Below are positions 32,222 to 54,533 of a stretch of 64,000 nt of DNA, piece by piece. The position numbers and the translations under genes were made by a program. The stretch comes from Candidatus Kuenenbacteria bacterium (GTDB taxonomy: Bacteria; Patescibacteriota; Patescibacteriia; UBA11705; JABHMO01), in the NCBI GenBank assembly GCA_013202715.1, contig JABMRF010000007.1, forward strand, positions 72,566 through 136,565, written 5' to 3'. Position 1 is the stretch's first letter; each line of letters opens with the position of its first letter. The notes beneath the pieces are model-generated. The model did no database searches, was not told where the DNA came from, and saw only the letters and a list, made by a program, of their open reading frames with translations.

Positions 32222-32363
32222 GTTAGATAGACAGTACAATGAGCTGAGCATTCAGAATGCCCAGTTCTTTTTATTTATAAAATATTGTTGACAGTATCCG
32301 TAAATTTATATAAGCTTAAACAATGAGTCAGTGATAGTTCCTTGACAAAAAGGGGGAGTGGAG

Positions 32364-33422
32364 ATGTTAGAAGTAGACGTAGCTAGAAATGTTAAGACGG
32401 TTAAACCGCCAGTTATTGGACTGGACATTGGCACATCAAGTGTAAAACTGGTTGAGTTACAGTCAGTTGACGATGGGTTGAAGTTGAAAATTTTTGATTA
32501 TGTTCCTTTAGACCCTGGTGTAATTGTAGATGGAAAAATCATTAATGCTGAGAATGTGGCAGTTCCAATCAATTTAATGGTTGTACGCCATAATCTTCAT
32601 GGTCGAAAAGCAGTGATAAGCGTTGGTGGATTAAGTGTTATCCATAAATTGATCAATCTGCCGGAAATGAGTCAAGCAGATTTAAATGCTTTAATGGACG
32701 CGGAAGCTGAAATTTACATCCCATTTGATATTGCAGATGTATATGTTGATTCAGTAATTATAGGATCTGATACCTCTGGTCATATGAAAGTCCTCTTGAC
32801 CGCTGCCAAAAGGGAACTGGTGGATAAATACCTGAACGTTGTGATTGCGGCTGGCCTGGATCCAATTTATATTGATTCAGACATGTATGCCATGTTCAAC
32901 GTGTTTGCTACCACATCTGAGTACTCGACTGACGATAAGGTTATTTTGCTGGATATTGGTGACTCGATGATGCGAGTCGTGGCCGTTAAAAACGGTGTGA
33001 TTGAGTTCATGCGTGAGATTCCTTTAGGGGGCGCTTTGCTAACTGAAGAAATTGCTCGAGAGCGGGGAATCAGTTGGCTAAAGGCTGAACAAATAAAATT
33101 GGAGACGAGCTCTTTCCCAGATGCGCTAGATTTACAAAAGGTGTATAACCGTGTAGTTGGATCTCTAGTTGAGGAAATTAATCGCGCAGTGGACTTTTAC
33201 ACTGCAGTCACAGTTGATGGTGGCCCGAGTAAAGTATTTGCTTTTGGCGGTGGAGCAAAAACTCCAACCTTACGAGAAAAGCTCGCAGAAAAATTGGGCA
33301 TCCCAGTTGAGCTTGGTCAACCATTACAAAGCATCAGAATCGACACAAGTTGGGCTAAGTCGCTCGAGGAGAGACAGGCTGATTTGGCTGTAGTTATTGG
33401 CCTGGCCATGCGCCAAGAGTAG
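32364..33422 (+). CDS. pilM: Type IV pilus assembly protein PilM (copy 1)
   Basis: Actin-like ATPase fold; N-terminal IGLDIGTSSVKLVEL; PilM-type ADVYVDS...AAKRELVDKY...AGLDPIYIDSDMYAMFN block. Confidence 0.75.
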   Translation: MLEVDVARNVKTVKPPVIGLDIGTSSVKLVELQSVDDGLKLKIFDYVPLDPGVIVDGKIINAENVAVPINLMVVRHNLHGRKAVISVGGLSVIHKLINLPEMSQADLNALMDAEAEIYIPFDIADVYVDSVIIGSDTSGHMKVLLTAAKRELVDKYLNVVIAAGLDPIYIDSDMYAMFNVFATTSEYSTDDKVILLDIGDSMMRVVAVKNGVIEFMREIPLGGALLTEEIARERGISWLKAEQIKLETSSFPDALDLQKVYNRVVGSLVEEINRAVDFYTAVTVDGGPSKVFAFGGGAKTPTLREKLAEKLGIPVELGQPLQSIRIDTSWAKSLEERQADLAVVIGLAMRQE

Positions 33423-33553
33423 GTGAGTGACATAACCGTGTATCAGGGATATACGGTTTTTTATTTATAAAATATTATTGACAATTTTCGTAAATTTATA
33501 TAAGATTAAACAGTCAGTCAGTGGTAGTTCCTTGACAAAAAGGGGGAGTGGAG

Positions 33554-34795
33554 ATGTTAAAAACCAATCTGATTAACAGACGGGAAGAAAAAAACAAAAG
33601 TAGAACTTCTCGTAGATGGCATGAATCAAAAGCTGGTTTTGAGTTAGGTCTCATTATTGGTAAATGGCAGCCAAGAATTACATTCTGCAATCAAGGTTTT
33701 CCAGGTCTGTCGCGTATGACGCAATACATTACTCAATTACTCAAATTTCCTGCTCGACCACTTATCGGGATTGATATTGGTTCGTCGAGCATTAAACTTG
33801 TTGAATTAAAACAAGTCATGGGGAAAATGATCCTGAAGAAGTGTGATTGGATTTCTTTGGAAAGCGGAACTATTGTTGATGGCGCTGTGATGTATATTGA
33901 GATACTTCAAGATGCTATTGATGAACTTGTTGCACGTAATAATATCAAAGGTAGGCGAGTGGCCATTAGTGTTAGTGGAAACAGTGTTATTATAAAACGA
34001 ATTTGTCTGCCTGAAATGAACCAAGCTGAGCTCGAAAGTAGTATCATGTGGGAAGCTGAACAGTATATTCCATTTGATATTTCAGAATGCTACGTTGACG
34101 CTGTTATTACACAGCCGGACGTAGGTCAAGATCAAATGGCTGTACTTTTGTCAGCCGCCAAAAAAGTTGAGATTGATAATTATCTGGAGATTTTGAAGAA
34201 AGCAGGTCTTAAGCCAGTAGTTGTTGATATTGATACTTATACTTTGTTTAATCTATTTACCAATTCAGCTAACTATTCGGAAGATGAGACAGTGGTGCTT
34301 TTGAACGTTGGCAATTCTATGATGAATGTCATGGTTATTGAAAAGGGTCAGCTTGTTTTTACACGTGATATTACTGCTCTAGCTGGTAGTTTGTTGACTG
34401 AAGAAATCTCGCGTAAGTTTGCCCTGACCTATCAAGAGTCTGAGAGTTATAAAACCGGAGATTCAGAATCAGTTTTGTCGATTGGAGTTCAAAAAGAAAT
34501 TGATGGTCTGTCTGGGCGGGTAGCTTCAACTTTGACTACAGAAGTTCATCGGGCAATTGAATTTCACAAAGCGGTCTCAATTGGAGATAAAATTACAAAA
34601 GCCTATCTTTATGGTGGTGGATCAAACATGACCACTCTGAGAGAACAGATTGCTCAAAGACTGAAAATACCAGTTGAACTTGGTCAACCAATACAAGGAA
34701 TCGAAATTACTCATGGTCTTGCAAATAAAGAAATCGTAAAAGCCAAAGCCATTGAGTTTGGCGTAGCTATTGGCCTGGCCATGCGCAAAGGGTAG
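33554..34795 (+). CDS. pilM: Type IV pilus assembly protein PilM (copy 2, ~60-aa N-terminal extension)
   Basis: Paralog of copy 1 (GIDIGSSSIKLVEL; VDIDTYTLFN); carries a duplicated upstream module and terminator. Confidence 0.75.
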   Translation: MLKTNLINRREEKNKSRTSRRWHESKAGFELGLIIGKWQPRITFCNQGFPGLSRMTQYITQLLKFPARPLIGIDIGSSSIKLVELKQVMGKMILKKCDWISLESGTIVDGAVMYIEILQDAIDELVARNNIKGRRVAISVSGNSVIIKRICLPEMNQAELESSIMWEAEQYIPFDISECYVDAVITQPDVGQDQMAVLLSAAKKVEIDNYLEILKKAGLKPVVVDIDTYTLFNLFTNSANYSEDETVVLLNVGNSMMNVMVIEKGQLVFTRDITALAGSLLTEEISRKFALTYQESESYKTGDSESVLSIGVQKEIDGLSGRVASTLTTEVHRAIEFHKAVSIGDKITKAYLYGGGSNMTTLREQIAQRLKIPVELGQPIQGIEITHGLANKEIVKAKAIEFGVAIGLAMRKG

Positions 34796-36182: not shown

Positions 36183-37133
36183 ATGACTATCATAAAACTG
36201 ATCACCCACTTCCTCGATTATACTGACGTGGAAAAAGGATTGTCAAAAAAAACTCAGGAAAATTATGCCAGATGCCTGGAACGATTTAGGCGTTGGTTGG
36301 TTGACAGCAACATGCAAAATCTCCTCCCCCATGAGCTAACTAGCGAAATTGTTTGGCAATATAGACTTTTTTTGTCACGCAAAGCGATCTCAAAAAAAAC
36401 CAAAGCTGAACTGTCAAAAAAAACCCAAAATATGTATTTGATCGCACTCCGTGGGCTTCTCAGTTATTTCTCAGTGCGCGATATCCCTTCCCTCTCCCCT
36501 GACAAAATACGCCTTGCAAAACAAGAAAAAAATCATAGTGTACACTTTTTGTCTTTGGAAAAAGTCAAAAGATTACTTGATTCTCCGGCGGGAAATGATT
36601 TAACTTCAAAGAGAGATAAGGCAATTTTGGAATCATTGTTTTCTACAGGTTTTCGTGTTTCTGAATTAGTTCAATTGGATCGTGATCATATTAGTGTAAA
36701 AAATACAAATAAAGTGGTGGAGTATAGTGTCACGGGTAAAGGAAATAAAACTCGAACGGTCTATTTTTCTCTGAGAGCTCTCAGTGCAATACAGGCATAT
36801 CTTGGCGCACGCGAGGATATTGACCAGGCCATGTTCATAAATTATTCTCCAACTGCACCTGACGTTGGTTCTCGTCGGCTTACGGCCAGATCCATCGAAC
36901 GTATAGTAAAAAAGTATGTAAAATTAGCTGGTCTTCCCTTGAATACAACTCCTCATACTCTGCGTCATTCGTTTGCAACTGACCTACTAAATCAGGGCGT
37001 TGATATCCGTATGGTCCAGGAGTTCTTAGGTCACGAAGACATTTCAACCACTCAAATTTACACTCATGTTACCAACAAAAATCTTCGTGATATTTATACA
37101 AAATTTCACGGCGGGAAACGGTCTGAAAAGTAG
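36183..37133 (+). CDS. Tyrosine site-specific recombinase (XerC/XerD/phage-integrase family)
   Basis: C-terminal catalytic box HTLRHSFATDLLNQGVDIRMVQEFLGHEDISTTQIYTHV (R..HxxR..Y); N-terminal core-binding domain with K-rich insertions. Confidence 0.8.
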   Translation: MTIIKLITHFLDYTDVEKGLSKKTQENYARCLERFRRWLVDSNMQNLLPHELTSEIVWQYRLFLSRKAISKKTKAELSKKTQNMYLIALRGLLSYFSVRDIPSLSPDKIRLAKQEKNHSVHFLSLEKVKRLLDSPAGNDLTSKRDKAILESLFSTGFRVSELVQLDRDHISVKNTNKVVEYSVTGKGNKTRTVYFSLRALSAIQAYLGAREDIDQAMFINYSPTAPDVGSRRLTARSIERIVKKYVKLAGLPLNTTPHTLRHSFATDLLNQGVDIRMVQEFLGHEDISTTQIYTHVTNKNLRDIYTKFHGGKRSEK

Positions 37134-37289
37134 TTATTTTTATCCACAGTTTACTTCAATTTACTATGAAGAGAACGAAAAAAATGGTATAATAAATATG
37201 TGATAAAAACTATGAGCATTTACGTACCGCTCTACAAATTAAGTTTTAAAAAACTTATTAATTTATTTTGATTATTAAGCATATTTTTT

Positions 37290-37538
37290 ATGAAAAAAAT
37301 TTGGCAATTCATAGGAGGACTCTTCATCTTTTTCCGTAAACATACCTGGATCACTCCCCTACTCCTGGTAGGTGTGATAATAATTCAGTTTGTTTTGTTG
37401 GGATTAATTTGTTTTCGGGTAAATAATTTTCAAAGCGATTTTGAAATTTATCGTAATGATAATTCAAAAAGAACAAACCAGATTTATAGTCAGGTTTTTT
37501 TATTGAATCAGCGAGTAGGACAAGTTCTTGAAAAATAG
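37290..37538 (+). CDS. Small hypothetical membrane protein
   Basis: 82 aa with one or two TM helices. Confidence 0.35.
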   Translation: MKKIWQFIGGLFIFFRKHTWITPLLLVGVIIIQFVLLGLICFRVNNFQSDFEIYRNDNSKRTNQIYSQVFLLNQRVGQVLEK

Positions 37539-37669
37539 TAGGTAAACGGAGTACGAATATAAAATTATGATTATGAATCCATACATCCGTATCAATCCGT
37601 AATCCGTACAAAAAAAATAAAAAATTTATATATATAATAAAAAATAAAACTAAATTAAAATTTAAATTT

Positions 37670-40600
37670 ATGAAAAAAATCGCAAAAAACAAAATCTTTA
37701 CAGGGTTCATTGCTATGACAACAATTGTCTGGGCAATGGGTTTGGCTGGAGTTCTTACTCCCCTACTTCCCGCTCAGGCAGCAGTTACGGTTGCAACGGA
37801 AAACAGAATCTATTCGTCCTGGGATATGAGTGGCGGAATGATGAGTGATGTTGCAGCTTTTAAAGTTACTGCTGATTCTGGAGAAACATTGAATTCTATC
37901 AATGTCCGATTTAACAGCACTTATGGTACTGCAACTCCAGCTGCAATGCTTTCGGCTTTTAATGTGGCTGGTCAAGAAGGAGCAACTGACGTCCAAGGAT
38001 TGTCTATTTACAAAGATTCTAATGCAAATGGCTGGTTTGATCCGGGCGGAGGTGATATCGTAGTACCTTGGGAAGTTCAACCAACTTGGACTGATAATGG
38101 AAACGGTACGTTTGATACCTCCCTGAATATTGTTGATGATACTTTACCTACAAGTTATGCCGGTGATTGGAACTATTTTTTACATATGCAAATGGCCGCG
38201 TCCCCTGATGCAGGCAAATCATTTAAGTTTCAATTTGGTGCTGGCGCTGGTGGAGCAATTGTAACTTCTGGAACATCACCAAGTATTACTGCATTTGAAA
38301 CAAATTCAATTAATAGTAGTGGTGGTGGTGGTGGTGATTATACAGTTTCTCCTCGAATTACTGATATATTTTTCAAGAGTCCCACTTCATTAGTCCTAGA
38401 TTTTGATATGGACATGGATACTACTTCAGTAAACTGTAATGAAGTCCTTATTCCGGGTAGTTGTTCCAGTAAATATACTTTGTTTACTAGAGATGGTGCT
38501 GATAATCAAACAATTATTACTGCTGTCCGTGGAGTTGTTGGGGACAATACTATGGTAACTTTGACAGCACACGCTAATGCCAGAATAGGTTTGTCATCAC
38601 AGGATTATTTAGTTGTTAGTACTGATCCAGCACAGGCACCTAGAGATGCAACGAATGGTATGAGTTATAATGAGGACGGAGTGATTAATTTCCATATAAA
38701 CAACGGAAGTGCTGTTATTTCAGAAATTAAAATTGGTGGATCCGCTACCACGGATGAATTTATCGAGTTATATATAACAGATTCCGGTGGATCGGTCGAT
38801 TTGGATGGGTATAAAGTAACAGCATTGGTTTCAAATGTATATGTTACATTGGCAACGTTAGGACCAACCTCTTTAGATACTGGTAAGCATTATTTATTGG
38901 CAAATAAGGCAAATGATTATAATATGGCAGTAGATGGAGTTGCTATGTTGGCCGATTTTAACTTTTCCGGCGTGGACTTAGCAGATAATGATACTATTAT
39001 TTTAGTTGACAACAACGGTGTTGTTATTGATTTGGTTGGCTTTGGTGCAGCTGCCACGATTTATCAGGGTTACTCTCCGGCAGATTCTCCGGCTCCGAAT
39101 GGTTCAATTGAAAGAAAGGCTGTATATTCCTCTACTGGTCAGTCTATGTCAGAAGCAGATGTAGACGGTGGAAATGGTTATAATAGTTTGGATAATGGGT
39201 ATGATTTTGTGAGTAGAAACGTACTTGACTCTGATCCACAACCATCAACAGCCACAGCAGAAAGTTCCGGTATGCTGGAAGATGATTATGTAAATAGCAC
39301 TCCAACAATAGAACATATGCCTATTGCTATGGCAATAGCCGGACAAAGTATAACAATAGATGCCTATATTTACGATGTAGAAAATTCTTTTAATGCATTA
39401 ATAACAAAGCAATTGTGTTACAAAGCTCCAAATGGATCTTGGCCAGGAACTTGTGTGACCGGTACAGACGAAGGACAAAATAGAGTAGAGTTTTATATCC
39501 CAGCTTCAGAAGTCACTATAAGTGGGCTTAATTACTATATTGAAGTTATTGATTCAGGGACTTTTGCGGCTTATGCCTCTTCTAATCCTACGTCCACAAC
39601 CGCTGTCATGGCAAAATTAAGTCCTTTTTTAATAAATATTTCCGCTATTGCTGGCTCCAGGATGATTAGTGGTACAGTTTATCAAAGCGATTGCATAACA
39701 CCAATTTATAATGCGAATGTTTATGTGAAAGGCACAGGACTCAGTTCTATTAGTTCCGCTTCCGGTGTTTTCACAATTACCGGAGTTTCGGACGGAACAT
39801 ACAATTTAGAAGCAACAGCAAGTGGATATCTTTCCAGTGAAATTTGGGGAGCGTCTGTAGGTGTTAATAATCCAAATTCATCGGGCTGGGTATTTTGTCT
39901 ATCGTCAGGAACAGCTGGGCAAGGTGGGGATTCTGAAGCACCGCAGGTGATTATGTCAATGCCAGGTGATGGAATGATGGGAGCTCCAATTGATATAGTT
40001 ATTGATCGCGCTCCGATGTTTTTTATGCTTGATAAGGAAATTGATATGACCACCGTAAGCTGTACAGACTGTGATGCCGCTACAGATAATATTAAGTTGA
40101 AAAAGGTCAGCGGAGGTTCTATTACTAACATTACAGATTACAATGTTAGTTTCGATACTGGTCTGGGTGCAGCCAGTAGAGGGCAAACAGTCCAATTCGG
40201 AGGTAGTACTTCTAATCCTGTAATTGTTATTGATAAAGTTGCACTTTTGGAAATAGGAACAGATTATATAATTGAAATTACACCAGGGGTGAAAGATATG
40301 GCTGGTAATCCTCTTGAGGGAAACCGACCTGGTGGCGGACATACCATATCGTTTACTACTCAATCAACCAGTAATAATTTTAGTGGTAGTTCTGGGTTTG
40401 ACTTTACTGAAGATGAAACTTTTTGGCAAACTGGTGATTTCTCCAGTATGACCGAGGACGCTGGATACGCTACAATGATGGGAAATTTTGATGCAGACAA
40501 GGGTATGTGGGCCGGAGGTGCATATAGCCCTCTGTATGTTTATGGCTCCCAACCATCTCCTGGTAGCTGGAATGTACCTACAAATTTAACAAAAATTGTT

Positions 40601-43600
40601 ATAGAGTTTAGCGAACCAATTGATACCAATAGTGTTAATAAAGGAGCTTTTAATTTGTACTCTGTCAGTGGCGGTGTTTATACAGATGTAACCAGTACTT
40701 CTATTGTGGATGCTATATTGAGTTCAAATAAGTTATATGTAATTATGGACATTAATGGTACTTTGCCTGTTGGTGAATATGAAATAAGAGTCAAGGGTGG
40801 AGTCAGATCAATGTCAGGCATTACACTCGGCGATCCAAATAATCCGGGAAATGATCATTACATGTCAAATTTTACTGTTACCAATACAACTGATGTAACT
40901 GCCCCTACAATGAATGGTAGTTGGCCTGAAAATAATGATATGTCAGTACCAATGGACTTTGGCTTTATTGATATAGGATTTGCTGAAGCATTGGATCCAA
41001 CTAATATTAACACTACAAATGTCACTTTGAAAACTGGAACATCAACTGTGCCGACCAATGTTGAATACGATGCGATGAGACAGTCAATCAAAATTATACC
41101 TACTACCGGTTTGACTCCAGGTGTAGCATATACTGCAACTATTAGTTTTGGCGCTTCTGCCATTCAAGATTTAGCAGGATTACCCATGGATCTATCTGGA
41201 CTTCTACTCACATTCAAAATGACTACAACGGCAGATAGTACTCAGCCTGTGCTTGAGTTTGCGAATTGTGATAGCTATAGTTGTGCAATCACTTTTAATA
41301 AAGGCATGAGCGCACTCAAGCAAAGTGAAGCTTCATCAAACGCTAACCTTTGGACTGGCAGTGTGAGAAATCCGGCCAACTATGCTTTGACTTTTGGTCC
41401 AGGTGGAACTGATACCGTAGAAAGTCTTACGGCCAGTGGTGTGTCCTTTAATTATGAATATGATACCAATACCGTATTGGTTGAAGGATTATCATTTACA
41501 GGCTTAAATGCAGATACAGATAAATTTGTTTTAACAGTAACCAATGTATTAGATCTTTCAAATAATCCAATCAACACTAGTGCCAATACAGCCGGTGGAT
41601 ATATTATGGATTCATCCAAGTCCGGCGGTATGATGGGACCTGGTGGTGGTGGATTTATGGGAGGTGGTATGATGGGTGGCGGAATAATGACCGGTGGCCC
41701 AAGCGGATTTGGTGGATTTGGTGCCAAAGAAGCTATGATGATGGGCGCAGGTGTGATGCCAATGAATATGACAGCCGGCGCAACTACTACATACTTTATT
41801 GACTTCCCTATGCCTCCATCAGGTGGAACTGCTAATAAACTTGATGATGGTTCATATTTTAAATTGACCTTTCCAAAGGGAACTACTTTGACTGGTGCAA
41901 TTCCAGATCCATACAATCCAAGTAAGACTGATCTTAATATGAATGGTGATGCAGTGGTTGTTCTGTCTGAATCTGGAATCGCTGCAGATTCAGTTGCTGC
42001 AACTCAGGCTGGTGCTATCAATGATGGAGTTACAGTTTCAGGTCAAACTATGACCTTGTGGTTAGATACAAATAGCGGAACAACTAGTGATCCAGATATG
42101 TTCCACTTTGAAGTCAAGGGCATTGTAAATCCAAAGGCTCAGGATTTTAATTCTTCAGGATATACAGTAGATATGAAAGCATATAATAGTGGCGGTACAT
42201 TGATAGAATCTATGACTTCTATGCCGTACTTTATAAATGCCGCGGGGTCAAATAATATTACGATTAATGTAACTGCTGAAGATGGTCTTGGTGATATGAC
42301 TTTGATGATGGGATCACCAATGTCCGGTCCAATGGACGCAGATGTATCTCTCATGGCTGGTGTGGGAACTCAAACTTGGTCAAATTTGAATGATGGTTGT
42401 TATCATATTTTTACTGAGCCAACAATTACTCTTGGTATATATAAATATTCAGGTCAGATGAATCCGGAACCGATTTGTTTGCCGGGTTCCGGCGCAAACT
42501 GGACTGAAGCTACGAGTACATTAACCAAAGCACTTACCTTTACAAAACGTAGCGCTGCTAATTCAGCTCAGCTAGCAGTATTAGTCAGTGGTACCTTTGC
42601 AGACGCCGGTGAAGACGTAGATATTTTTGCTTTTGGCCCAAATGGTGGAACCGTTGAAACTGTGACTTTTGGCGGTGAAGTTGTAAATAATTCCACTACC
42701 CTCTTTCTTCCATCCAATGGTGATTACAATATTGGTATCGGTCCGGCAATGCCAAAGGGTCCGATGGCCGGTCCCCCACCAATGCCTGATTGGATGCCAC
42801 CTATGACAACTGCGATCACTGTCAGTGGTGTCGGTGGAACTCCGGTAATTAAACGAAACGACACCAATGCTACTATTACTGAATTACCTATATCAATTAC
42901 CAGCGCTACAAAAGAAATTCGTGGACTGGTGGTCTCCAAGGGAACAACTATAGGTGCAAGTTATACTGCAGCTGCGACAAGTCTAACCTTAACCAGTGGA
43001 AGTGGCTTTGCGGAAAATGACTTTATTTATATATCTGATGGAACAAATACCGCTACTGATAAGATTCTGTCTATCAGTGGTACAACTGTGCAATTAACCA
43101 GTGGAATGGGTACATCCTTTGCTTCTGGTAGCGCAGTCTATAACATCATTCCTGACACTGAATTATGGGCTAATCAGCCAATGGGCTTTGGTGGTATGGG
43201 ATCTCACGCAACTTCACAAGCTGATGGTTCATTTGTGTTAAAAGTTGCTTCAAATGGTACTTATGATATTGGTGCTTGGAAGTCAGGAATTGGTGATGCT
43301 CCTTCTAGTTCGGCAACTGTCAAAGATAATAATGGTGGTACAGTAGATGGAAATAGTACAGCCGACGTTAAGGTTAATGGAGCTAACATTACTACTGTAA
43401 ACCCGTTCCTAATAAAAATAGGTAGACCAGATTATGTAATCTCTGGGCGAGCTATTGATTCCAGTAATAATCCAATGCAATATACTCATGTGATGGCAGA
43501 AGAAACTACAACTCGCCAAATGGCACATTCAAATACAGATTCAGATGGTGATTATATCCTCAATGTTAGTGCAGGTACCTGGAGTATTCAGGTAGATACA

Positions 43601-46312
43601 CCTCCTAGCTTTGATGGCTGTGGATCGACCTCTGCTACTGTTGTTGTTGCCGAAGCAACTGGAGATATGAATAATCAGACATTGCAACCAGCCACTACAA
43701 CTTGTTATACAATTTCAGGAAATGTGTCTGTAGGTGGAAATCTTCAGACTAATGTGCCTATTATGGTGGAAGCCTGGGACACAGATAATGACTGGCCATC
43801 CGGAGGTTATAATCGACATGAAATGACTGATACTGCTGGTAATTATGCCGTAAAAGCTGGAGCTGGAACATACCGAGTTTCTATGTGGTCACCTGATTAC
43901 GGTGAGGTTGGATCCAATGTAGTAATTACCAGTGCTAATGTAACTCAAAATATTAGTTATGATGCTTCTGAGTTGAAAACATTGACTATTGCCTTTACCG
44001 GTGGAACAGCAAGTCAGAGAGGTTTTGTAGAAGCAAAATCAACTACAGGGTCAGGTCGTCGTGGTATACCAGTCGCTGATTTAAGTAGTAGCACAACAAT
44101 GAGTTTACCCGTCGATACATATAAAGTAATGGTGTTTGTTGATGGCCTTGGTGATTACTCCCCTTCTTCAGAGGTTGATCTCACAACAACTGATCAAACT
44201 GTAACTATAAATCTTTCAACTGAAACTTCACATGCAGTAAGTGGAACAATTTTAGATAGTAGTGATAACCCGGTTTCTGGTGCAGCAGTACTTCTTGTAA
44301 ATGAAACTACCGGGCTAGCTAAACAAGCAACTACTGATGCTAATGGTGATTATTCCGCCACTGTAAAGGAAGGAACATTTACTATCAAGGCAGAGCACAA
44401 GGATTATGCTTCATTACCAAAAGCAACTCTAGCTGTAACTTCTGATATTAACTATGATTTTGATAGTGATTCAGAAAATGAAGATATTGCTGTAGATAAT
44501 GATTTAGTTGAAAAAACTGTAAGTATTAGTGGTACGATTTATAAATCTGATGGTACAACTGAAATGAATACCGGCGGATTTGTTTACGCAACAGATTCAG
44601 TGACTGGATCAAAGGCTAAGGCCAATATTCAGGACGATGGAACATATATTCTTCCAGTTACTGCTGGAAATTGGACAGTCATAGCTGATGGACCACTTCA
44701 CTCCGAGACAACTCTTAGTACTGCTGTGTCAGTGTCAAGTACAAATGTAGCAAGTGAAGATATTACATTGACTGAAGATGCGACAGATATTAAAAAGTCA
44801 GAATCATCAACCTTTACCCCATCCTCGGGTGTTAATGTAAATGATGAAAACAATACCGGTTTTGAAATTACGGCCAGTTCAGGTTCGCTTGGTCAAAACA
44901 GCACAGCTACTTCTGGAACAATTACCCTCGAAGAAGTTGATATGCCTGCTTCTGATAATTTGGTGCCTGTTGGAAACTTTGTAGATGTTTCAATGAGAAC
45001 TACCACTTCATCAGGTACTTCAGATATTAATCAGTTGACCGGTAATGGTGCTGAAATCGTGTTTCACTATACAGCTGCTGATATGACTGCTGCCGGAATA
45101 ACAGATGAATCAATGATATCCTTGGCCTATTATGATGATACTACTGAAACTCTTATGCCACTCGATAATCTCGCCCGTGATACAACTAATAATACAGTAA
45201 CTGGTACAATTACTCATTTGACAGAAGTTGGTTTGGTTGCTCCGCCGTTGGTGTCGTCTTCAGCTCCGCGTAGTGTTATGCCAAGCGCGGGATCGGCTGT
45301 AATTACCACTCCAGCCACAGATGAAGTTACAGACGTAGTTGAAGATGATACATCTGTAGTTACAGATACAGATATTGATACTGTTACCACTGTTGTTACA
45401 GATGTCAAAGAAGTAACAAAAACAGTTATCGCTGAAACAACCGCTGTCACAAGCTTTGTTCCTGAAAAACCGGCAGATCGATCACTTGCTAAAGAAAGTT
45501 TAGCAGTCGGCGATTACATCAAGTTAACCAGAACAGCACCAGATTCAGCTGAGGAGTGGAAAGTGATTGATTACATGGCCTACGGAACAACTGCCAAGGT
45601 TAAATCAATGACTAACGGAGAAAGATTTGGACTGCTCGAAGATTACAAGATCGTTTACAACCGATTGCCTGCAGCTGATACTGACTGGGAATCACTTGGC
45701 AAGATGGCGCAAGGAACTACTCCGGCCCGAATTATCGGCCGGGAAGCTGAAGCGTTGAAAGCATTTGTCAAAGTATTTGGCCGAGTTGTAGACTTTAGTA
45801 AGTCAGCTGAAGAAAAGTTCATTCACAGCGTTGCTTATTACTTGCGCCCTGCTGAGCGTGATATGGCAAAAGAACAAGCAGCTTTGGGAACATTTGCTGA
45901 TGCTTATAACAAGCTTCCAAACACAAGTTTCTTCTGGTCAGTACTTCGAGGTGTTGCTTATTCTGGTGTAGAAAAGAATGCACCAGTCCCTGTCCCTGAA
46001 ATACCGGCAGTTGAAGTTACGGCTCCTGCTCTAGACAATGCGTCTAATGTTGTTCCAGCTCATCCCGCAACTGCTGACAGAAACTTGAAAGCTGAAATTA
46101 CCGCAGTTAGTGATTATTCAGCCTTGATGGGCGGAACTCCGGATTCAGCTGGTTGGAGTACAATTTACTTTATCTCTTACGGAAGTACTGATGCCAGCAT
46201 GGCCATGACTTCAGCTGAGAGATTGGAGATTATCAAGACTTACAAGAGTCAGAACGACAAATTGCCAACAACCGATAGTGACTGGCAAGCTGTAGCAGAT
46301 TTAGTTCAATAG
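37670..46312 (+). CDS. Giant secreted surface protein (2880 aa): signal peptide, lamin-tail domain, Ig-like/CarbopepD_reg-like beta domains, a Gly/Met-rich low-complexity linker, a Pro-rich segment and a C-terminal triple ~60-aa repeat
   Basis: Signal peptide MKKIAKNKIFTGFIAMTTIVWAMGLAGVLTPLLPAQA. LTD-like block SAVISEIKIGGSATTDEFIELYITDSGGSVDLDGYKV...DNDTIILVDNNGVVIDLVGFG. GGMMGPGGGGFMGGGMMGGGIM linker and PPPMPDWMPPM segment. Three C-terminal repeats with (A/I)YG(T/S)T...ER..(L/I)..YK...(D/N)KLP..D(S/T)DW. Confidence 0.85.
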   Translation: MKKIAKNKIFTGFIAMTTIVWAMGLAGVLTPLLPAQAAVTVATENRIYSSWDMSGGMMSDVAAFKVTADSGETLNSINVRFNSTYGTATPAAMLSAFNVAGQEGATDVQGLSIYKDSNANGWFDPGGGDIVVPWEVQPTWTDNGNGTFDTSLNIVDDTLPTSYAGDWNYFLHMQMAASPDAGKSFKFQFGAGAGGAIVTSGTSPSITAFETNSINSSGGGGGDYTVSPRITDIFFKSPTSLVLDFDMDMDTTSVNCNEVLIPGSCSSKYTLFTRDGADNQTIITAVRGVVGDNTMVTLTAHANARIGLSSQDYLVVSTDPAQAPRDATNGMSYNEDGVINFHINNGSAVISEIKIGGSATTDEFIELYITDSGGSVDLDGYKVTALVSNVYVTLATLGPTSLDTGKHYLLANKANDYNMAVDGVAMLADFNFSGVDLADNDTIILVDNNGVVIDLVGFGAAATIYQGYSPADSPAPNGSIERKAVYSSTGQSMSEADVDGGNGYNSLDNGYDFVSRNVLDSDPQPSTATAESSGMLEDDYVNSTPTIEHMPIAMAIAGQSITIDAYIYDVENSFNALITKQLCYKAPNGSWPGTCVTGTDEGQNRVEFYIPASEVTISGLNYYIEVIDSGTFAAYASSNPTSTTAVMAKLSPFLINISAIAGSRMISGTVYQSDCITPIYNANVYVKGTGLSSISSASGVFTITGVSDGTYNLEATASGYLSSEIWGASVGVNNPNSSGWVFCLSSGTAGQGGDSEAPQVIMSMPGDGMMGAPIDIVIDRAPMFFMLDKEIDMTTVSCTDCDAATDNIKLKKVSGGSITNITDYNVSFDTGLGAASRGQTVQFGGSTSNPVIVIDKVALLEIGTDYIIEITPGVKDMAGNPLEGNRPGGGHTISFTTQSTSNNFSGSSGFDFTEDETFWQTGDFSSMTEDAGYATMMGNFDADKGMWAGGAYSPLYVYGSQPSPGSWNVPTNLTKIVIEFSEPIDTNSVNKGAFNLYSVSGGVYTDVTSTSIVDAILSSNKLYVIMDINGTLPVGEYEIRVKGGVRSMSGITLGDPNNPGNDHYMSNFTVTNTTDVTAPTMNGSWPENNDMSVPMDFGFIDIGFAEALDPTNINTTNVTLKTGTSTVPTNVEYDAMRQSIKIIPTTGLTPGVAYTATISFGASAIQDLAGLPMDLSGLLLTFKMTTTADSTQPVLEFANCDSYSCAITFNKGMSALKQSEASSNANLWTGSVRNPANYALTFGPGGTDTVESLTASGVSFNYEYDTNTVLVEGLSFTGLNADTDKFVLTVTNVLDLSNNPINTSANTAGGYIMDSSKSGGMMGPGGGGFMGGGMMGGGIMTGGPSGFGGFGAKEAMMMGAGVMPMNMTAGATTTYFIDFPMPPSGGTANKLDDGSYFKLTFPKGTTLTGAIPDPYNPSKTDLNMNGDAVVVLSESGIAADSVAATQAGAINDGVTVSGQTMTLWLDTNSGTTSDPDMFHFEVKGIVNPKAQDFNSSGYTVDMKAYNSGGTLIESMTSMPYFINAAGSNNITINVTAEDGLGDMTLMMGSPMSGPMDADVSLMAGVGTQTWSNLNDGCYHIFTEPTITLGIYKYSGQMNPEPICLPGSGANWTEATSTLTKALTFTKRSAANSAQLAVLVSGTFADAGEDVDIFAFGPNGGTVETVTFGGEVVNNSTTLFLPSNGDYNIGIGPAMPKGPMAGPPPMPDWMPPMTTAITVSGVGGTPVIKRNDTNATITELPISITSATKEIRGLVVSKGTTIGASYTAAATSLTLTSGSGFAENDFIYISDGTNTATDKILSISGTTVQLTSGMGTSFASGSAVYNIIPDTELWANQPMGFGGMGSHATSQADGSFVLKVASNGTYDIGAWKSGIGDAPSSSATVKDNNGGTVDGNSTADVKVNGANITTVNPFLIKIGRPDYVISGRAIDSSNNPMQYTHVMAEETTTRQMAHSNTDSDGDYILNVSAGTWSIQVDTPPSFDGCGSTSATVVVAEATGDMNNQTLQPATTTCYTISGNVSVGGNLQTNVPIMVEAWDTDNDWPSGGYNRHEMTDTAGNYAVKAGAGTYRVSMWSPDYGEVGSNVVITSANVTQNISYDASELKTLTIAFTGGTASQRGFVEAKSTTGSGRRGIPVADLSSSTTMSLPVDTYKVMVFVDGLGDYSPSSEVDLTTTDQTVTINLSTETSHAVSGTILDSSDNPVSGAAVLLVNETTGLAKQATTDANGDYSATVKEGTFTIKAEHKDYASLPKATLAVTSDINYDFDSDSENEDIAVDNDLVEKTVSISGTIYKSDGTTEMNTGGFVYATDSVTGSKAKANIQDDGTYILPVTAGNWTVIADGPLHSETTLSTAVSVSSTNVASEDITLTEDATDIKKSESSTFTPSSGVNVNDENNTGFEITASSGSLGQNSTATSGTITLEEVDMPASDNLVPVGNFVDVSMRTTTSSGTSDINQLTGNGAEIVFHYTAADMTAAGITDESMISLAYYDDTTETLMPLDNLARDTTNNTVTGTITHLTEVGLVAPPLVSSSAPRSVMPSAGSAVITTPATDEVTDVVEDDTSVVTDTDIDTVTTVVTDVKEVTKTVIAETTAVTSFVPEKPADRSLAKESLAVGDYIKLTRTAPDSAEEWKVIDYMAYGTTAKVKSMTNGERFGLLEDYKIVYNRLPAADTDWESLGKMAQGTTPARIIGREAEALKAFVKVFGRVVDFSKSAEEKFIHSVAYYLRPAERDMAKEQAALGTFADAYNKLPNTSFFWSVLRGVAYSGVEKNAPVPVPEIPAVEVTAPALDNASNVVPAHPATADRNLKAEITAVSDYSALMGGTPDSAGWSTIYFISYGSTDASMAMTSAERLEIIKTYKSQNDKLPTTDSDWQAVADLVQ

Positions 46313-46321
46313 ATTTGAATA

Positions 46322-46366
46322 GAAAAAATAAAAAACGAGCCTCATTGTACGAGGCTCGTTTTTGTT
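46322..46366. terminator. Bidirectional terminator after the giant gene
   Basis: aacgagcctcattgtacgaggctcgtt with an A-run before and a T-run after. Confidence 0.8.
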
Positions 46367-46454
46367 ACCCATCACTTACCCCGCGTCTTTAGACCGGGAG
46401 TATAGTGTTCAGCTTCCTGTGCTTTTCATTCCCAGTCTGAAGACATGGGGTAAG

Positions 46455-46838
46455 TTAGATGTCGCGAAAATGCATTCCCAACACTGGGTCTTTTTTTATT
46501 TTTTCAATATTTTTATCAACCTGTTCATAAAATTCAGGATAATGTTGACGGGCAATCCATCTGCCTTGATATCGCTGTCGGTACGGCGGTTTTTGCAGGT
46601 GCGCAACTTCATGCGCCACTGTGCGGATCAAGCCGTTAAGGCTTTTTGGTTTCATTGTCTTGGGCGTATAAATATCCAGAACAACTGTTTTCGTTTGCAA
46701 ATTAATATAGCCAAGTGTATAGCGTTTATTACTCTTACTCCCCTTTCGGGCCATTATTTTTAATTTCAAACCTTTTACCTTTAGGATTTGGCAGATTTTC
46801 TGGAATAGGATTTGGGCCAGGTCTTCGTGATTTTGCAT
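46455..46838 (-). CDS. Small HExxH metallohydrolase-like protein (DUF45/YgjP/SprT-like)
   Basis: TVAHEVAHL (HExxH) followed by H..EFY; 127 aa. Confidence 0.4.
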   Translation of the reverse strand: MQNHEDLAQILFQKICQILKVKGLKLKIMARKGSKSNKRYTLGYINLQTKTVVLDIYTPKTMKPKSLNGLIRTVAHEVAHLQKPPYRQRYQGRWIARQHYPEFYEQVDKNIEKIKKDPVLGMHFRDI

Positions 46839-50438: not shown

Positions 50439-50571
50439 CTGTATCAATTGGTTCTTTGAAAAATCGCTTGAGTACAACAGAAAGACCTTATTTACAATTA
50501 TCTATTGTATGTAGCGTCTTTTTGTTGTGTCGAGAGTCAACAATTTTTCAAAACCTTAATTGGAGGAAAGC

Positions 50572-53336: not shown

Positions 53337-54533
53337 CTATAAGTGTGCAATAATCTTTTTTGCGAATTCTTGACGGTGTGGATGAATGAATTGTAATATT
53401 TCATCTTTGCTCACCCACTTGATTTCCTCAACCTCTTCTGAATCTGAAAAGTCAATGTTTGAATCCTTACCTTGGAACTCCAACAGAAAGGCGGTTTGTT
53501 CTTGGCCTTTGAAACCTTTTAAAAGATTTTGATATTCAGCTGGATTGTCGTATCTGTGTTGTTCTGGGATTTTTTTTATTAATTTAAATAATTTTTCTGA
53601 CGCCCCAACCTCTTCGCTTGATTCTCGAACTACCGCTGTTTCTGGGGTTTCTTCTTGGTCAACTCCGCCTTGAGGAAATTGCCAATGATTTTTTCCAAAG
53701 CGTGGGTTTCTTATTATTAAAAATTTCCCTTCTTTGTTTTTAGTTACTCCAATGACATTTTGCCTGTATTCTGACTGAATTCTTTTTTTCCATTTGTGAC
53801 AAACAAGTAAGAAATCAGCTGTGGCGTTTTTGATTCGTTTCAATCGGCTTGGTTCCTGATAAAGTCGATAGGCCCATTCCAATCCCGAATCGCGAACAAG
53901 TTTTGGCGCTCGCTTGATTTTTTCTGTCAGAAAATCAATACTTCCACCTATTCCAATTGCGACTTTTACACCTGGAATTAGTTTTATATATTTGTTGATC
54001 CAAAACTCTTGTGCCGGCGCGCCCAAAGTTACAAATAGTATTTTTGGTCCAAAGGTATTGATAGAATTTAAAACTTCATCACAATTGTCTGGGTTTTTTA
54101 TGTCGATCTGGCTGATTTGGAAGTTTAGTTTTGGATATTTTTCCTTGAATAGTTTTTTTATGTCAGCTTCAGTGGACAGGGAGTCGTTTCTTAGAACGAT
54201 GAAGACTTTAGTTTCTGTATCTTTATATTTTTCCAAAATTTCTTTTGTTAAGTCTGAGCCTGCCACCCTGTTCTCGAGAGTTTCACCCAGAATCTTGGCG
54301 CCAAGTTTCAAACCGATCCCGTCAGGGATGTTTATATCGGCTCGATTCAAAACGTGTCGGTACTCATCATCTTTTTCCGCTTTTAGGCAGATTTCTGGAT
54401 TTGGAGTATATATTTTGTGCTGGTCATTGGAATTTAAAAATTGGTCAATTTTTTGTAATACAAAATCCATTGGCTGGTCGGTGATTTGAACGCCGAGGAT
54501 AATTGATTTGTTTTGGAACTCGGGAGGACGCAT
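53337..54533 (-). CDS. Fusion protein: WecG/TagA/CpsF-family glycosyltransferase (N-terminal) plus NUDIX hydrolase (C-terminal)
   Basis: N-terminal half matches WecB/TagA/CpsF-type glycosyltransferases (TPNPEICLKAEKDDEYRHVLNRADINIPDGIGL). C-terminal Nudix box GGVDQEETPETAVVRESSEEVG. Confidence 0.7.
   Translation of the reverse strand: MRPPEFQNKSIILGVQITDQPMDFVLQKIDQFLNSNDQHKIYTPNPEICLKAEKDDEYRHVLNRADINIPDGIGLKLGAKILGETLENRVAGSDLTKEILEKYKDTETKVFIVLRNDSLSTEADIKKLFKEKYPKLNFQISQIDIKNPDNCDEVLNSINTFGPKILFVTLGAPAQEFWINKYIKLIPGVKVAIGIGGSIDFLTEKIKRAPKLVRDSGLEWAYRLYQEPSRLKRIKNATADFLLVCHKWKKRIQSEYRQNVIGVTKNKEGKFLIIRNPRFGKNHWQFPQGGVDQEETPETAVVRESSEEVGASEKLFKLIKKIPEQHRYDNPAEYQNLLKGFKGQEQTAFLLEFQGKDSNIDFSDSEEVEEIKWVSKDEILQFIHPHRQEFAKKIIAHL

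What the first reader, a model, noticed from the sequence alone, without database searches (positions are those of the whole stretch)
37670..46312. 2880-aa secreted giant protein: lamin-tail domain, stacked Ig/CarbopepD_reg-like domains, a Gly/Met-rich linker and a C-terminal triple repeat
It occupies 13% of the window. The signal peptide and LTD (SAVISEIKIGG...DEFIELY...DNDTIILVDNNGVVIDLVGFG) are typical of giant adhesins or S-layer-type proteins in episymbiotic small-genome bacteria. The GGMMGPGGGGFMGGGMMGGGIMTGGPSGFGGFG segment followed by MPMNM and PPPMPDWMPPM is an unusual Met/Gly/Pro low-complexity module, possibly a flexible or phase-separating spacer. The last ~250 aa hold three ~60-aa repeats (YG(T/S)T...ER...YK...KLP..D(T/S)DW) of unknown fold that may anchor the protein to the cell envelope. 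The gene sits directly downstream of a Xer-type recombinase and a 660-bp AT-rich non-coding region.
Basis: partly seen in the sequence, partly recalled or inferred. Interest (0 to 1): 0.55.

Follow-up and report, generated by a model that had tools for sequence, protein, structure and literature searches.

The report
Giant surface protein with uncatalogued anchor
This is a real 2880-residue secreted surface fibre of an ultra-small Patescibacteria (CPR) bacterium, ordinary in its chain of beta-sandwich domains, but it ends in an uncatalogued helical module that hundreds of secreted proteins of this lineage carry at their C-terminus and that probably fastens them to the cell envelope.

Summary
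The ORF 37670-46312 (+) is real. It has a signal peptide, a lamin-tail domain, three Big_5 and six CarboxypepD_reg domains, and a terminator hairpin just after the stop. Full-length orthologues (44% identity) lie in the same gene neighbourhood in Patescibacteria/Falkowbacteria-type genomes.

The Gly/Met segment (aa 1319-1360) is predicted disordered. Its composition is conserved in orthologues but its length is not.

The C-terminus is not three ~60-aa repeats. It holds six ~42-aa helix-loop-helix units: one complete four-unit module (aa 2598-2769), a Pro/Val linker, and a half module (aa 2801-2880).

A profile of the unit finds 926 protein clusters. The module almost always sits at the extreme C-terminus, behind signal peptides and extracellular passenger domains (cohesin, fn3, PKD, LTD, protease, cellulase). 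AlphaFold models the module at pLDDT 95.8 as a compact all-alpha domain. Pfam, NCBIfam, PDB sequences and Foldseek against PDB and viral structures give no match.

Best reading: a C-terminally tethered giant adhesin-like fibre whose tether is an undescribed, lineage-specific, non-covalent envelope-anchoring domain that works like SLH. The anchoring role is inferred, not shown.

The "660-bp non-coding region" is a 536-bp gap that contains a conserved 82-aa membrane-protein gene.

The parts
37670..46312 (+). Giant gene, 2880 codons plus stop
   Evidence: ORF list and translation. The same protein with one substitution (I1727V) occurs on a 204-kb JGI contig and a Logan contig with identical neighbours. 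Orthologue P0032 is 44% identical over aa 1-2769.
37670..37780 (+). Signal peptide, aa 1-37 (Lys-rich start, long hydrophobic core, AQA|AV)
   Evidence: Read directly. The N-terminus is conserved in orthologues P0032, P0011 and P0039. No SignalP-type tool was available.
37781..38701 (+). N-terminal (distal) region, aa 38-344, no family assigned
   Evidence: No Pfam hit. 38-43% identical in orthologues, so not hypervariable.
38702..39046 (+). Lamin-tail domain (LTD), aa 345-459
   Evidence: PF00932, 39.4 bits (cut-off 34.3); 44.8 bits in a tile.
39662..39907 (+). CarboxypepD_reg-like beta-sandwich no. 1, aa 665-746
   Evidence: PF13620/PF13715 in tiles. Boundaries from the self-profile.
40004..41224 (+). 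Three Big_5 Ig-like domains (aa 779-898, 972-1070, 1075-1185)
   Evidence: PF13205, 67.3 bits, 3 stretches. Boundaries.
41624..41749 (+). Gly/Met-rich disordered hinge, aa 1319-1360 (20 Gly and 9 Met in 42 residues)
   Evidence: Composition. AF2 pLDDT 26-35 over aa 1300-1358. Same position and composition, but variable length, in 9 relatives.
41750..42949 (+). Most conserved block, aa 1361-1760: tandem beta-sandwiches with near-invariant motifs GSPMSGPMD (42311-42337) and PPPMPDWMPPM (42773-42805)
   Evidence: 51-54% identity to orthologues, the highest of any region. AF2 strands throughout. Foldseek best hits are Gram-positive pilins and adhesins: BcpA 3rkp E 6e-9, SpaC, TIE protein, PitA, UafA, SdrD. 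TM-scores are low because the model has several domains.
43148..44776 (+). Array of five CarboxypepD_reg-like domains (aa 1827-1905, 1923-2005, 2031-2100, 2189-2269, 2285-2369)
   Evidence: PF13620 stretches in tiles. Boundaries.
44777..45244 (+). Pre-stalk region, aa 2370-2525, no family assigned
   Evidence: No Pfam hit. Conserved in P0001 and L004.
45245..45460 (+). Val/Thr/Ser/Asp-rich low-complexity stalk, aa 2526-2597
   Evidence: Composition V16 T16 S8 D8 of 72 residues. Least conserved region.
45461..45976 (+). Complete four-hairpin C-terminal module (units u1-u4), aa 2598-2769
   Evidence: 199 bits against a profile that excludes this sequence. AF2 pLDDT 95.8, pTM 0.89, eight main helices. 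pI 8.3 against 4.07 for the passenger.
45977..46069 (+). Pro/Val/Ala-rich linker, aa 2770-2800
   Evidence: Translation. Absent from the 4-unit orthologues P0032, P0028 and P0021.
46070..46309 (+). Half module (units u1-u2 only), aa 2801-2880, ending at the stop codon
   Evidence: 60 bits to profile positions 4-83. The same extension is present in P0001, P0003, P0008, P0010-P0012, L004 and L005, but not in L006 or L008.
46331..46363 (+). Terminator-like hairpin (15-bp stem flanked by A and T runs) 19 nt after the stop
   Evidence: The scan lists it on the minus strand; the palindrome with a following T-run also reads on the plus strand.
37290..37538 (+). Conserved 82-aa ORF with one hydrophobic segment, between the recombinase and the giant gene
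   Evidence: Called as a gene in L002. A homologue sits at the same position in L084 and L085. No Pfam hit.
36183..37133 (+). Xer-type tyrosine recombinase (neighbour; no functional link shown)
   Evidence: PF00589 and PF02899. The adjacency is conserved in the P0032 locus, together with the rest of the neighbourhood.

Best explanation
The gene encodes a Sec-exported, C-terminally tethered giant surface fibre of a Patescibacteria (Falkowbacteria-like) cell.

After signal-peptide cleavage, the acidic passenger (pI 4.1) projects from the cell. It is the N-terminal tip region, an LTD, and about a dozen recognisable Ig-like or transthyretin-like beta-sandwiches, with more unassigned beta-rich stretches. 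A disordered Gly/Met hinge sits in the middle and a Val/Thr/Asp-rich stalk at the base.

The last 283 residues are 1.5 copies of a compact four-hairpin all-alpha module. This module is shared by many hundreds of secreted proteins of the lineage. I infer that it holds the protein non-covalently on the cell envelope, bound to peptidoglycan, to a secondary wall polymer, or to a surface-layer component. In that reading it does the job that SLH, CWB2 or SLAP modules do in Firmicutes.

Shown: the gene, its domains, the repeat anatomy, the family and its C-terminal position, the partner domains, the taxonomic range, the confident helical model, and the absence from catalogued families.

Inferred: surface display, orientation (N-terminus out), anchoring, the ligand, and an adhesive function of the tip.
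For: Gene and domains.

Orthologues and synteny: the order Xer - small ORF - giant - orf127 - M23 - GltX recurs in related loci.

Module family:
- The unit profile finds 926 representative clusters at E<=1e-3, and 264 at E<=1e-10.
- 120 of 135 hits, and 78 of 81 ORFs from GTDB genomes, end within 5 aa of the last unit.
- 103 of 118 apparently full-length members start with a strongly hydrophobic N-terminal segment.
- Passengers are all extracellular domain types: Cohesin 16, fn3 11+6, PKD, LTD, CarboxypepD_reg, Big_5, S8 protease, GH5, CARDB, beta-helix, LRR.
- At least 9 genomes carry several copies.
- Charge is split: family median pI is 4.55 for passengers and 9.35 for module regions, and the module is the more basic part in 94 of 114 proteins.

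Other points:
- A low-complexity stalk precedes the module.
- The protein has no C-terminal hydrophobic tail and no LPXTG (read directly).
- The module folds confidently: pLDDT 95.8.
- The middle block resembles Gram-positive pilin and adhesin stalks.
- The organism makes a wall: alanine racemase, an M23 peptidase and a WecG/TagA-family transferase are in the window.
Against: - Nothing here shows binding to any envelope component.
- No member seen so far fuses the module to a classical wall hydrolase (amidase, lysozyme, NlpC/P60), the usual signature of peptidoglycan-binding modules.
- The cohesin-linked subfamily has acidic modules (pI about 4.1), so a single electrostatic ligand model does not fit all members.
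- The window protein's half module is acidic too (pI 4.27).
- 15 of 135 members carry the module away from the C-terminus.
- The tip is not hypervariable, unlike many adhesins.
Confidence: 0.6

Rival explanations
1. The C-terminal module is a protein-protein docking device, dockerin-like or an S-layer attachment. It would plug these secreted proteins onto a proteinaceous surface scaffold rather than onto a wall polymer.
For: It is a compact helical repeat domain with conserved aromatic and charged residues. Copy number varies from 2 to 10 units. Module charge is heterogeneous, including acidic subtypes. Cohesin domains are present in the same lineage.
Against: The cohesin domains sit in the same polypeptides as the module. 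That is the layout of anchoring scaffoldins (cohesin plus SLH), not of dockerin-bearing cargo (the cellulosome comparison is from general knowledge). No partner protein was identified. No Pfam dockerin match was found.
Confidence: 0.2
2. The giant protein is itself a structural S-layer (surface lattice) subunit rather than a projecting adhesin.
For: CPR cells are reported to have surface layers (own knowledge, not checked here). The protein is Thr-rich (11.6% against 4.5%), acidic and nearly Cys-free, like many S-layer proteins. It has a dedicated terminator and an AT-rich leader. SLH-type anchors serve S-layer proteins too.
Against: 2880 aa is far above typical S-layer subunits. The architecture is a linear string of small beta-sandwiches with a disordered hinge, and the best fold matches are pilin and adhesin stalks. 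The same module sits on dozens of unrelated passengers per lineage.
Confidence: 0.1
3. The module is a C-terminal sorting or secretion signal, recognised and perhaps removed by a dedicated export or sorting machine, as with the T9SS CTD or exosortase and sortase signals.
For: Strict C-terminal position in about 90% of members, and a conserved terminal motif W-x-[IV]-[VL]-R-A-I-A-Y-S-G-A-[KR].
Against: The module is large (170 aa), stably folded and internally repeated in 2-10 units. It is sometimes internal and sometimes followed by a further half module, as here. No conserved neighbouring sorting enzyme was seen.
Confidence: 0.07
4. The Met-rich elements (the Gly/Met hinge, GSPMxGPMD and PPxMPDWMPP) are functional Cu(I)/Ag(I)-binding or oxidant-scavenging sites, not just spacers.
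For: Met is 3.5% here against 2.2% in 15 other window ORFs. The two short Met/Pro motifs are nearly invariant across relatives only 28-53% identical. One weak fold hit is to the copper-binding protein YcnI (7me6, E 1e-3). Met-rich Cu(I) motifs are known in CopA, PcoC, CusF and Ctr1 (own knowledge).
Against: There is no His or Cys partner pattern, and no metal-handling genes are nearby. The hinge is length-variable and disordered. Gly/Met-rich flexible regions with no metal role are known, for example the G/M region of Sis1-type Hsp40 (own knowledge).
Confidence: 0.1

Closest known systems
SLH (S-layer homology) anchoring modules of Firmicutes surface proteins and cellulosome anchoring scaffoldins
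   Same: A terminal, repeated, largely helical module. It is shared by many otherwise unrelated secreted proteins of one lineage (S-layer-like proteins, cohesin carriers, exo-enzymes), comes in several copies per genome, and is preceded by a linker. Here it is inferred to retain proteins non-covalently on the wall.
   Different: No sequence relationship: no PF00395 hit in the window protein or in 145 family members. The module has four ~42-aa hairpins rather than three ~55-aa SLH motifs. It is confined to Patescibacteria. Its ligand is unknown and its binding is untested.
Gram-positive fibrillar adhesins, MSCRAMMs and pilins (BcpA, SpaC, SdrD, UafA, Bap, TIE proteins)
   Same: Signal peptide, a long string of Ig-like / CnaB / transthyretin-like beta-sandwiches forming a stalk, and C-terminal attachment. 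Foldseek matches of aa 1361-1760 reach E 6e-9. SdrD_B gives a weak Pfam hit.
   Different: No LPXTG, hydrophobic tail or sortase signal. No recognised ligand-binding A domain. Isopeptide and thioester residues were not examined. TM-scores are low.
Giant LTD- and Ig-domain surface proteins reported in CPR, DPANN and other episymbionts or predators
   Same: Very large secreted multi-beta-sandwich protein in a small-genome, presumably host-attached bacterium, with an LTD present.
   Different: I found no paper in the held library that describes this orthologue group or its C-terminal module. This comparison rests on general knowledge.
Pseudomurein-binding repeat (PMBR, PF09373) and DUF4214
   Same: Short helical repeats with a helix-x-L-P turn. 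One of 20 modules gives a 13-residue PMBR match (E 0.0076, 16.7 bits). A DUF4214 protein appears among non-significant viral fold hits.
   Different: Both are below any threshold (the PMBR cut-off is 24.9 bits) and compatible with chance given the number of sequences tested. They are leads only.

Membership tests
Lamin tail domain (Pfam PF00932) | Profile match above Pfam's gathering score | tested here: met
   39.4 bits against 34.3, aa 345-459. 44.8 bits in a tile. Orthologue P0032 has it at the same place.
CarboxypepD_reg / transthyretin-like beta-sandwich (PF13620, PF13715) | Profile match above the gathering score, repeated | tested here: met
   133.9 bits against 32.3, 6 stretches. PF13715 gives 72.2 bits.
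Big_5 bacterial Ig-like domain (PF13205) | Profile match above the gathering score | tested here: met
   67.3 bits against 23.6, 3 stretches.
SLH domain (PF00395) | Sequence-profile match of the C-terminal repeats | tested here: not met
   The C-terminal 292 aa give no Pfam family at E<=1. 20 isolated modules give none at E<=10. SLH is not among the families listed for 145 family members.
SLH domain (PF00395) | Binding to pyruvylated secondary cell-wall polymer | not testable with these tools
   Needs biochemistry.
Choline-binding CW_binding_1, CWB2, LysM, SH3b and PG_binding families | Sequence-profile match of the C-terminal repeats | tested here: not met
   Same searches as for SLH. SH3_3 occurs in 2 members, but outside the module.
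   NCBIfam gives no such hit. The N-terminus reads MKKIAKNKIFTGF. The family is an N-terminal signal, so it cannot describe the C-terminal repeats.
Sortase-anchored LPXTG proteins | C-terminal LPXTG, then a hydrophobic segment and a basic tail | tested here: not met
   The protein ends ...KLPTTDSDWQAVADLVQ with no hydrophobic tail.
Pseudomurein-binding repeat (PF09373) | Profile match above the gathering score (24.9 bits) | tested here: not met
   One of 20 modules matches, at 16.7 bits over 13 residues. The window module has no hit.
Gram-positive pilin / CnaB-type adhesin stalk domains | Fold similarity of the beta-sandwich block | tested here: inconclusive
   Foldseek E 6e-9 and probability 1.0 to BcpA, SpaC and TIE, but TM 0.2-0.3 and a model mean pLDDT of 67.
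Gram-positive pilin / CnaB-type adhesin stalk domains | Intramolecular isopeptide or ester bond triads | not tested
Uncatalogued Patescibacteria C-terminal four-hairpin module (defined here, alignments A1 and A3) | ~42-aa units with the pattern R-x-L-x2-E-x2-A-[IL]-x2-[FY]-x5-7-P-x4-5-W-x2-[IV]-x3-A-Y-G | tested here: met
   Six units found. An independent profile gives 199 and 60 bits.
Uncatalogued Patescibacteria C-terminal four-hairpin module (defined here, alignments A1 and A3) | Position at the extreme C-terminus of a signal-peptide-bearing protein | tested here: met
   The last unit ends at the final residue. The same holds for 120 of 135 and 78 of 81 relatives.

The most novel reading that the evidence does not exclude
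The 170-residue four-hairpin module would be a previously undescribed, Patescibacteria-wide cell-envelope targeting domain with a fold not represented in the PDB. It would be the functional counterpart of SLH in this lineage, and its presence would mark the whole displayed surface proteome, from 250-aa proteins to 3500-aa fibres. Its ligand would be a CPR-specific wall component. The strictly conserved Met/Pro motifs of the giant's central block might add a second unrecognised function, such as metal or redox chemistry at the cell surface.
Probability: 0.4. Interest if true: 0.7.

Novelty: new variant of a known kind. Interest (0 to 1): 0.5.

Why it matters
Patescibacteria make up a large share of bacterial diversity. 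They live attached to other cells, and almost nothing is known about how their surface is built or how proteins are held on it.

A sequence signature that flags envelope-retained proteins would give three things:
- A computable surface proteome for hundreds of uncultured genomes, which narrows the search for host-recognition factors.
- A handle (module-GFP fusions) for labelling or capturing these cells.
- A new domain family for the databases.

The signature is at least 926 clusters at 50% identity, several copies per genome, and a highly confident structural model.

The giant protein itself is an expected kind of molecule for such organisms.

Tried and rejected
- **Invertible promoter (phase variation) driven by the adjacent Xer recombinase.** The best inverted repeat is 37258-37284 / 37632-37658, matching 21 of 27. 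It is marginal (3.5% of Markov shuffles do as well). The gap is 100% identical and in the same orientation in three independent assemblies. No evidence, so dropped.
- **Known wall-binding or sorting families for the C-terminus.** Pfam at E<=1 and E<=10, NCBIfam, PDB sequence and profile searches all came back empty. The only PDB hit was a designed helical repeat, 8fje, at E 0.09.
- **Fold matches for the module.**
  - Foldseek against the PDB gave a best E of 2.5 and TM<=0.23.
  - Foldseek against BFVD gave a best E of 0.69.
- **Phage use of the module**, for example on lysins. No pattern match in IMG/VR.
- **PMBR lead.** A 13-residue sub-threshold match in 1 of 20 modules. Treated as chance.
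- **Whole-protein PDB sequence search.** Nothing at E<=0.01.
- **Single-sequence, word-indexed homology search with the C-terminus.** It found only one relative. The family appeared only with the repeat-unit profile in the exhaustive search.
- **Other copies of the module in the window.** None.
- **Literature.** Seven keyword searches found no description of this protein group or module. That does not prove that none exists.
- **Rfam on the window.** No hits above gathering score.
Full report
**1. Is it there?**

Yes. A single ATG-initiated ORF runs from 37670 to 46312 on the + strand and encodes 2880 residues. With the local base composition, the chance of 2880 stop-free codons is about 1e-84. 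The reading frame ends 19 nt before a 15-bp GC-containing hairpin flanked by A and T runs (46331-46363).

The same protein, with one substitution (I1727V), is on record from a 204-kb JGI metagenome contig and from a Logan assembly, with identical neighbours. A full-length orthologue, P0032 (2714 aa), is 44% identical from residue 1 to 2769. Further relatives (P0012, P0028, P0021, P0151, P0011, P0039) share long collinear stretches.

The gene order Xer recombinase - small ORF - giant - orf127(-) - M23 peptidase(-) - GltX(-) recurs around P0032. Its downstream part recurs in four GTDB genomes. This is a real, conserved chromosomal gene.

**2. Whose gene is it?**

Loci encoding the C-terminal module come overwhelmingly from MAGs titled Patescibacteria group, Candidatus Falkowbacteria, Parcubacteria or Kuenenbacteria (lineage).

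The syntenic loci are L004 (Patescibacteria H51-bin326_1), L006 (Falkowbacteria CG10_39_11) and L008 (Parcubacteria GW2011_GWA2_40_23). Their GltX and M23 proteins are 54-67% identical to those of the window.

Some TPA records are titled "uncultured Gammaproteobacteria". One of them, L005, has the same synteny, so I treat that label as unreliable (inference).

The rest of the window is housekeeping: aminoacyl-tRNA synthetases, alanine racemase, FtsQ, two PilM, ClpB, an AddA-like helicase and a WecG/TagA-NUDIX fusion. The organism therefore has a peptidoglycan wall, probably a wall glycopolymer, and type IV pilus genes.

**3. Anatomy of the protein**

| Residues | Feature | Evidence |
|---|---|---|
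| 1-37 | Long Gram-positive-style signal peptide: Lys-rich start, hydrophobic core, AQA\|AV. Conserved in orthologues. | |
| 38-344 | No family assigned | |
| 345-459 | Lamin-tail domain, above Pfam's cut-off | |
| 665-746 | CarboxypepD_reg-like sandwich | |
| 779-1185 | Three Big_5 domains | |
| 1319-1360 | Gly/Met stretch | |
| 1361-1760 | Conserved beta block | |
| 1827-2369 | Five more CarboxypepD_reg-like sandwiches | |
| 2370-2525 | Unassigned beta-rich pre-stalk region | |
| 2526-2597 | Val/Thr/Ser/Asp-rich low-complexity stalk | |
| 2598-2880 | C-terminal repeat region | |

The whole passenger is very acidic (pI 4.07, net charge -167) and Thr-rich (11.6% against 4.5% in 15 other window ORFs). 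It has only 14 Cys.

**4. The Gly/Met element**

The segment aa 1319-1360 has 20 Gly and 9 Met in 42 residues. In nine relatives that are 28-53% identical, a Gly/Met-rich (Gly/Asp/Phe-rich in the more distant ones) segment of variable length occupies the same position. It always leads into a conserved ...PMN..AGATT.YFID.P strand.

An AF2 model of aa 1300-1760, built on that 10-sequence alignment, gives pLDDT 26-35 for aa 1300-1358 and beta strands from about aa 1361 onward. The flexible-spacer reading is therefore supported as far as prediction goes.

Two things go beyond a spacer:
- The block that follows (aa 1361-1760) is the best-conserved part of the whole protein, at 51-54% identity.
- It contains two near-invariant Met/Pro motifs, GSPM(S/T)GPMD and PPxMPDWMPP.

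Foldseek places this block next to Gram-positive pilin and adhesin stalks: BcpA E 6e-9, SpaC, the TIE protein, PitA, UafA, SdrD and Bap. TM-scores are low, as expected for a multi-domain model of moderate confidence. Why Met is favoured (3.5% overall against 2.2%) is unexplained.

**5. The C-terminal repeats**

A word-indexed search with the 292 C-terminal residues found only one relative. A 42-position profile of the unit, run exhaustively against 1.84 billion representatives, found 926 proteins at E<=1e-3, 264 at E<=1e-10 and 25 at E<=1e-30. Each had 2-10 units.

Across the family the units are organised as a four-unit module of about 170 residues. It usually ends ...W-[AS]-[IV]-[VL]-R-A-I-A-Y-S-G-A-[KR].

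The window protein has one full module (aa 2598-2769), a Pro/Val/Ala linker, and then only units 1-2 of a second module (aa 2801-2880). Against a profile built without the window sequence, these score 199 and 60 bits. Shuffled controls reach at most 6.3 bits.

The extra half module is shared with the closest relatives (P0001, P0003, P0008, P0010-12, L004, L005). It is missing from the more distant syntenic orthologues (P0032, L006, L008). It therefore looks like a recent partial duplication.

**6. What the family says about function**

- **Position.** The module ends within 5 residues of the C-terminus in 120 of 135 proteins and in 78 of 81 ORFs from GTDB genomes.
- **Export.** 103 of 118 apparently complete members begin with a strongly hydrophobic segment. 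The exceptions look like truncated gene calls.
- **Partners.** Every Pfam family found on the passengers of 145 members is an extracellular type:
  - Adhesin-like, Ig-like and binding domains: Cohesin (16), fn3, PKD, Big_5, CarboxypepD_reg, LTD, CARDB, TSP3, LRR, beta-helix, Laminin_G_3, CBM_4_9, SH3_3, Purple-acid-phosphatase N, CHB_HEX_C.
  - Enzymes: an S8 protease and a GH5 cellulase.
- **Size range.** Sizes run from about 250-aa proteins (signal peptide + YGYGGGG + module) to 3508 aa.
- **Copy number.** At least nine genomes have two or three module-bearing loci, even in a scan limited to one peptide pattern.
- **Charge.** Module regions are usually basic while passengers are acidic. Medians are pI 9.35 and 4.55, and the module is the more basic part in 94 of 114 proteins. 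In the window protein the values are 8.3 and 4.07.
- **Stalk.** A low-complexity stalk precedes the module.

This is the profile of a generic surface-retention module such as SLH, CWB2 or SLAP. The cohesin-plus-module proteins mirror cellulosomal anchoring scaffoldins (cohesin plus SLH; general knowledge).

Against a simple picture:
- The cohesin-type modules are acidic.
- No classical wall hydrolase fusions were seen.
- Binding has not been tested.

**7. Is the module known?**

I could not find it in any catalogue available here.
- Pfam (2025 models) gives nothing for the window C-terminus at E<=1, nothing covering the module in 145 members, and only scattered sub-threshold noise for 20 isolated modules at E<=10.
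- The most suggestive item is a 13-residue, 16.7-bit match to the pseudomurein-binding repeat in one module. That is compatible with chance.
- NCBIfam (June 2026) gives nothing.
- All 120 listed database relatives are "hypothetical protein" with no precomputed Pfam domain on the module.
- PDB sequence and profile searches give nothing, apart from a designed helical repeat at E 0.09.

AlphaFold2 on a 20-sequence alignment gives a very confident compact all-alpha model: pLDDT 95.8 and pTM 0.89, with eight main helices forming four helix-loop-helix hairpins. Foldseek finds no similar structure in the PDB (best E 2.5, TM<=0.23) or in BFVD (best E 0.69).

**8. Mechanism proposed**

- Shown: export signal, modular beta-sandwich passenger, disordered hinge, stalk, terminal helical module, and family-wide C-terminal position on secreted proteins.
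- Inferred: after Sec export, the basic C-terminal module binds a component of the Patescibacteria envelope non-covalently. The Val/Thr/Asp stalk spans the wall zone. The acidic chain of beta-sandwiches projects outward with the N-terminal region and LTD at the tip, and the Gly/Met hinge gives a flexible joint about halfway along.
- A role in contacting a host cell or substrate is plausible for an episymbiont but is not supported by any specific ligand-binding domain.

Confidence is high (about 0.9) that this is a secreted surface protein. It is about 0.55-0.6 that the module is an envelope anchor. It is low for any particular ligand. The rivals (protein docking module, S-layer subunit, sorting signal, metal-binding Met motifs) are listed separately with their tests.

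**9. Upstream region**

The recombinase is a standard Xer-type enzyme. The 536-bp gap contains an 82-aa ORF with one hydrophobic segment. That ORF is conserved between the recombinase and the giant gene in the P0032 locus.

I looked for an invertible switch. The best inverted repeat is marginal (p about 0.035), and three assemblies show the same orientation. Because the whole neighbourhood is syntenic, the adjacency gives no evidence of a functional link.

**10. Verdict**

As a giant surface protein of a CPR bacterium it is an expected kind of molecule. The part worth attention is the C-terminal four-hairpin module. It is a large, lineage-restricted, uncatalogued domain family with a confident structural model and a consistent signature of surface retention.

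Noticed in passing
window 37290-37538 (+): An 82-aa ORF with one transmembrane-like segment lies in the supposedly non-coding gap. It is conserved (30% identity, pairwise E 5e-13) at the same position, between the Xer recombinase and the giant gene, in the orthologous loci L084 and L085. An extended -10-like TGGTATAAT lies upstream at about 37185. It may be an accessory of the giant gene.
   Followed up: partly
window 46455-46838 (-): A 127-aa ORF immediately downstream of the giant gene is conserved (54-68% identity) at the same place in L005-L007 and in the P0032 locus. It has no Pfam hit. It overlaps the + strand ORF 46362-46763, which is therefore probably spurious.
   Followed up: partly
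window 50560-52281 (+), GC 0.54 against about 0.39 for the window: A GC-rich island holds a 573-aa TTG-started ORF rich in Ala, Lys and Glu, with an internally repeated ...HFFDP / YFFDP motif. It has no Pfam family and no Rfam family above threshold. It may be foreign DNA.
   Followed up: partly
window 53337-54533 (-): A WecG/TagA/CpsF-family glycosyltransferase is fused to a NUDIX domain. TagA-type enzymes start wall-polymer linkage units, so this hints at a secondary wall glycopolymer that could be the module's ligand.
   Followed up: no
window 32358-34795 (+): Two tandem PilM paralogues (354 and 415 aa) lie just upstream of the recombinase. They belong to a type IV pilus assembly set, a system implicated in episymbiosis in other Patescibacteria (abstract of PMC12206443, listed).
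   Followed up: no
family members P0004, P0006, P0009, P0017-P0019, P0022, P0024: One subfamily has a signal peptide, one Cohesin domain and 6-10 acidic units with the motif EQQALVYFGAFYARMPS..DW.ALHCIAYGGC. This is the layout of an anchoring scaffoldin and suggests cohesin-dockerin-like assemblies on CPR surfaces.
   Followed up: partly
family members P0198, P0220, P0265: These small proteins (250-300 aa) consist of a signal peptide, a YGYGGGG motif, a Thr/Pro/Ala linker and a three-unit module. They look like abundant short surface proteins that use the same tail.
   Followed up: no
window 37258-37284 and 37632-37658: An imperfect 27-nt inverted repeat (21 of 27 matched) brackets the small ORF between the recombinase and the giant gene. 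It is marginal against shuffles (p about 0.035), and three assemblies show the same orientation.
   Followed up: yes
L047 (JBLNBA010000001.1, titled Bacillota) and L079 (titled Methanobacteriaceae archaeon): A few module-bearing contigs carry non-Patescibacteria titles, as do the many "uncultured Gammaproteobacteria" TPA MAGs. These are probably mislabelled or mis-binned, but this was not checked except for L005, which shares synteny with the window.
   Followed up: partly
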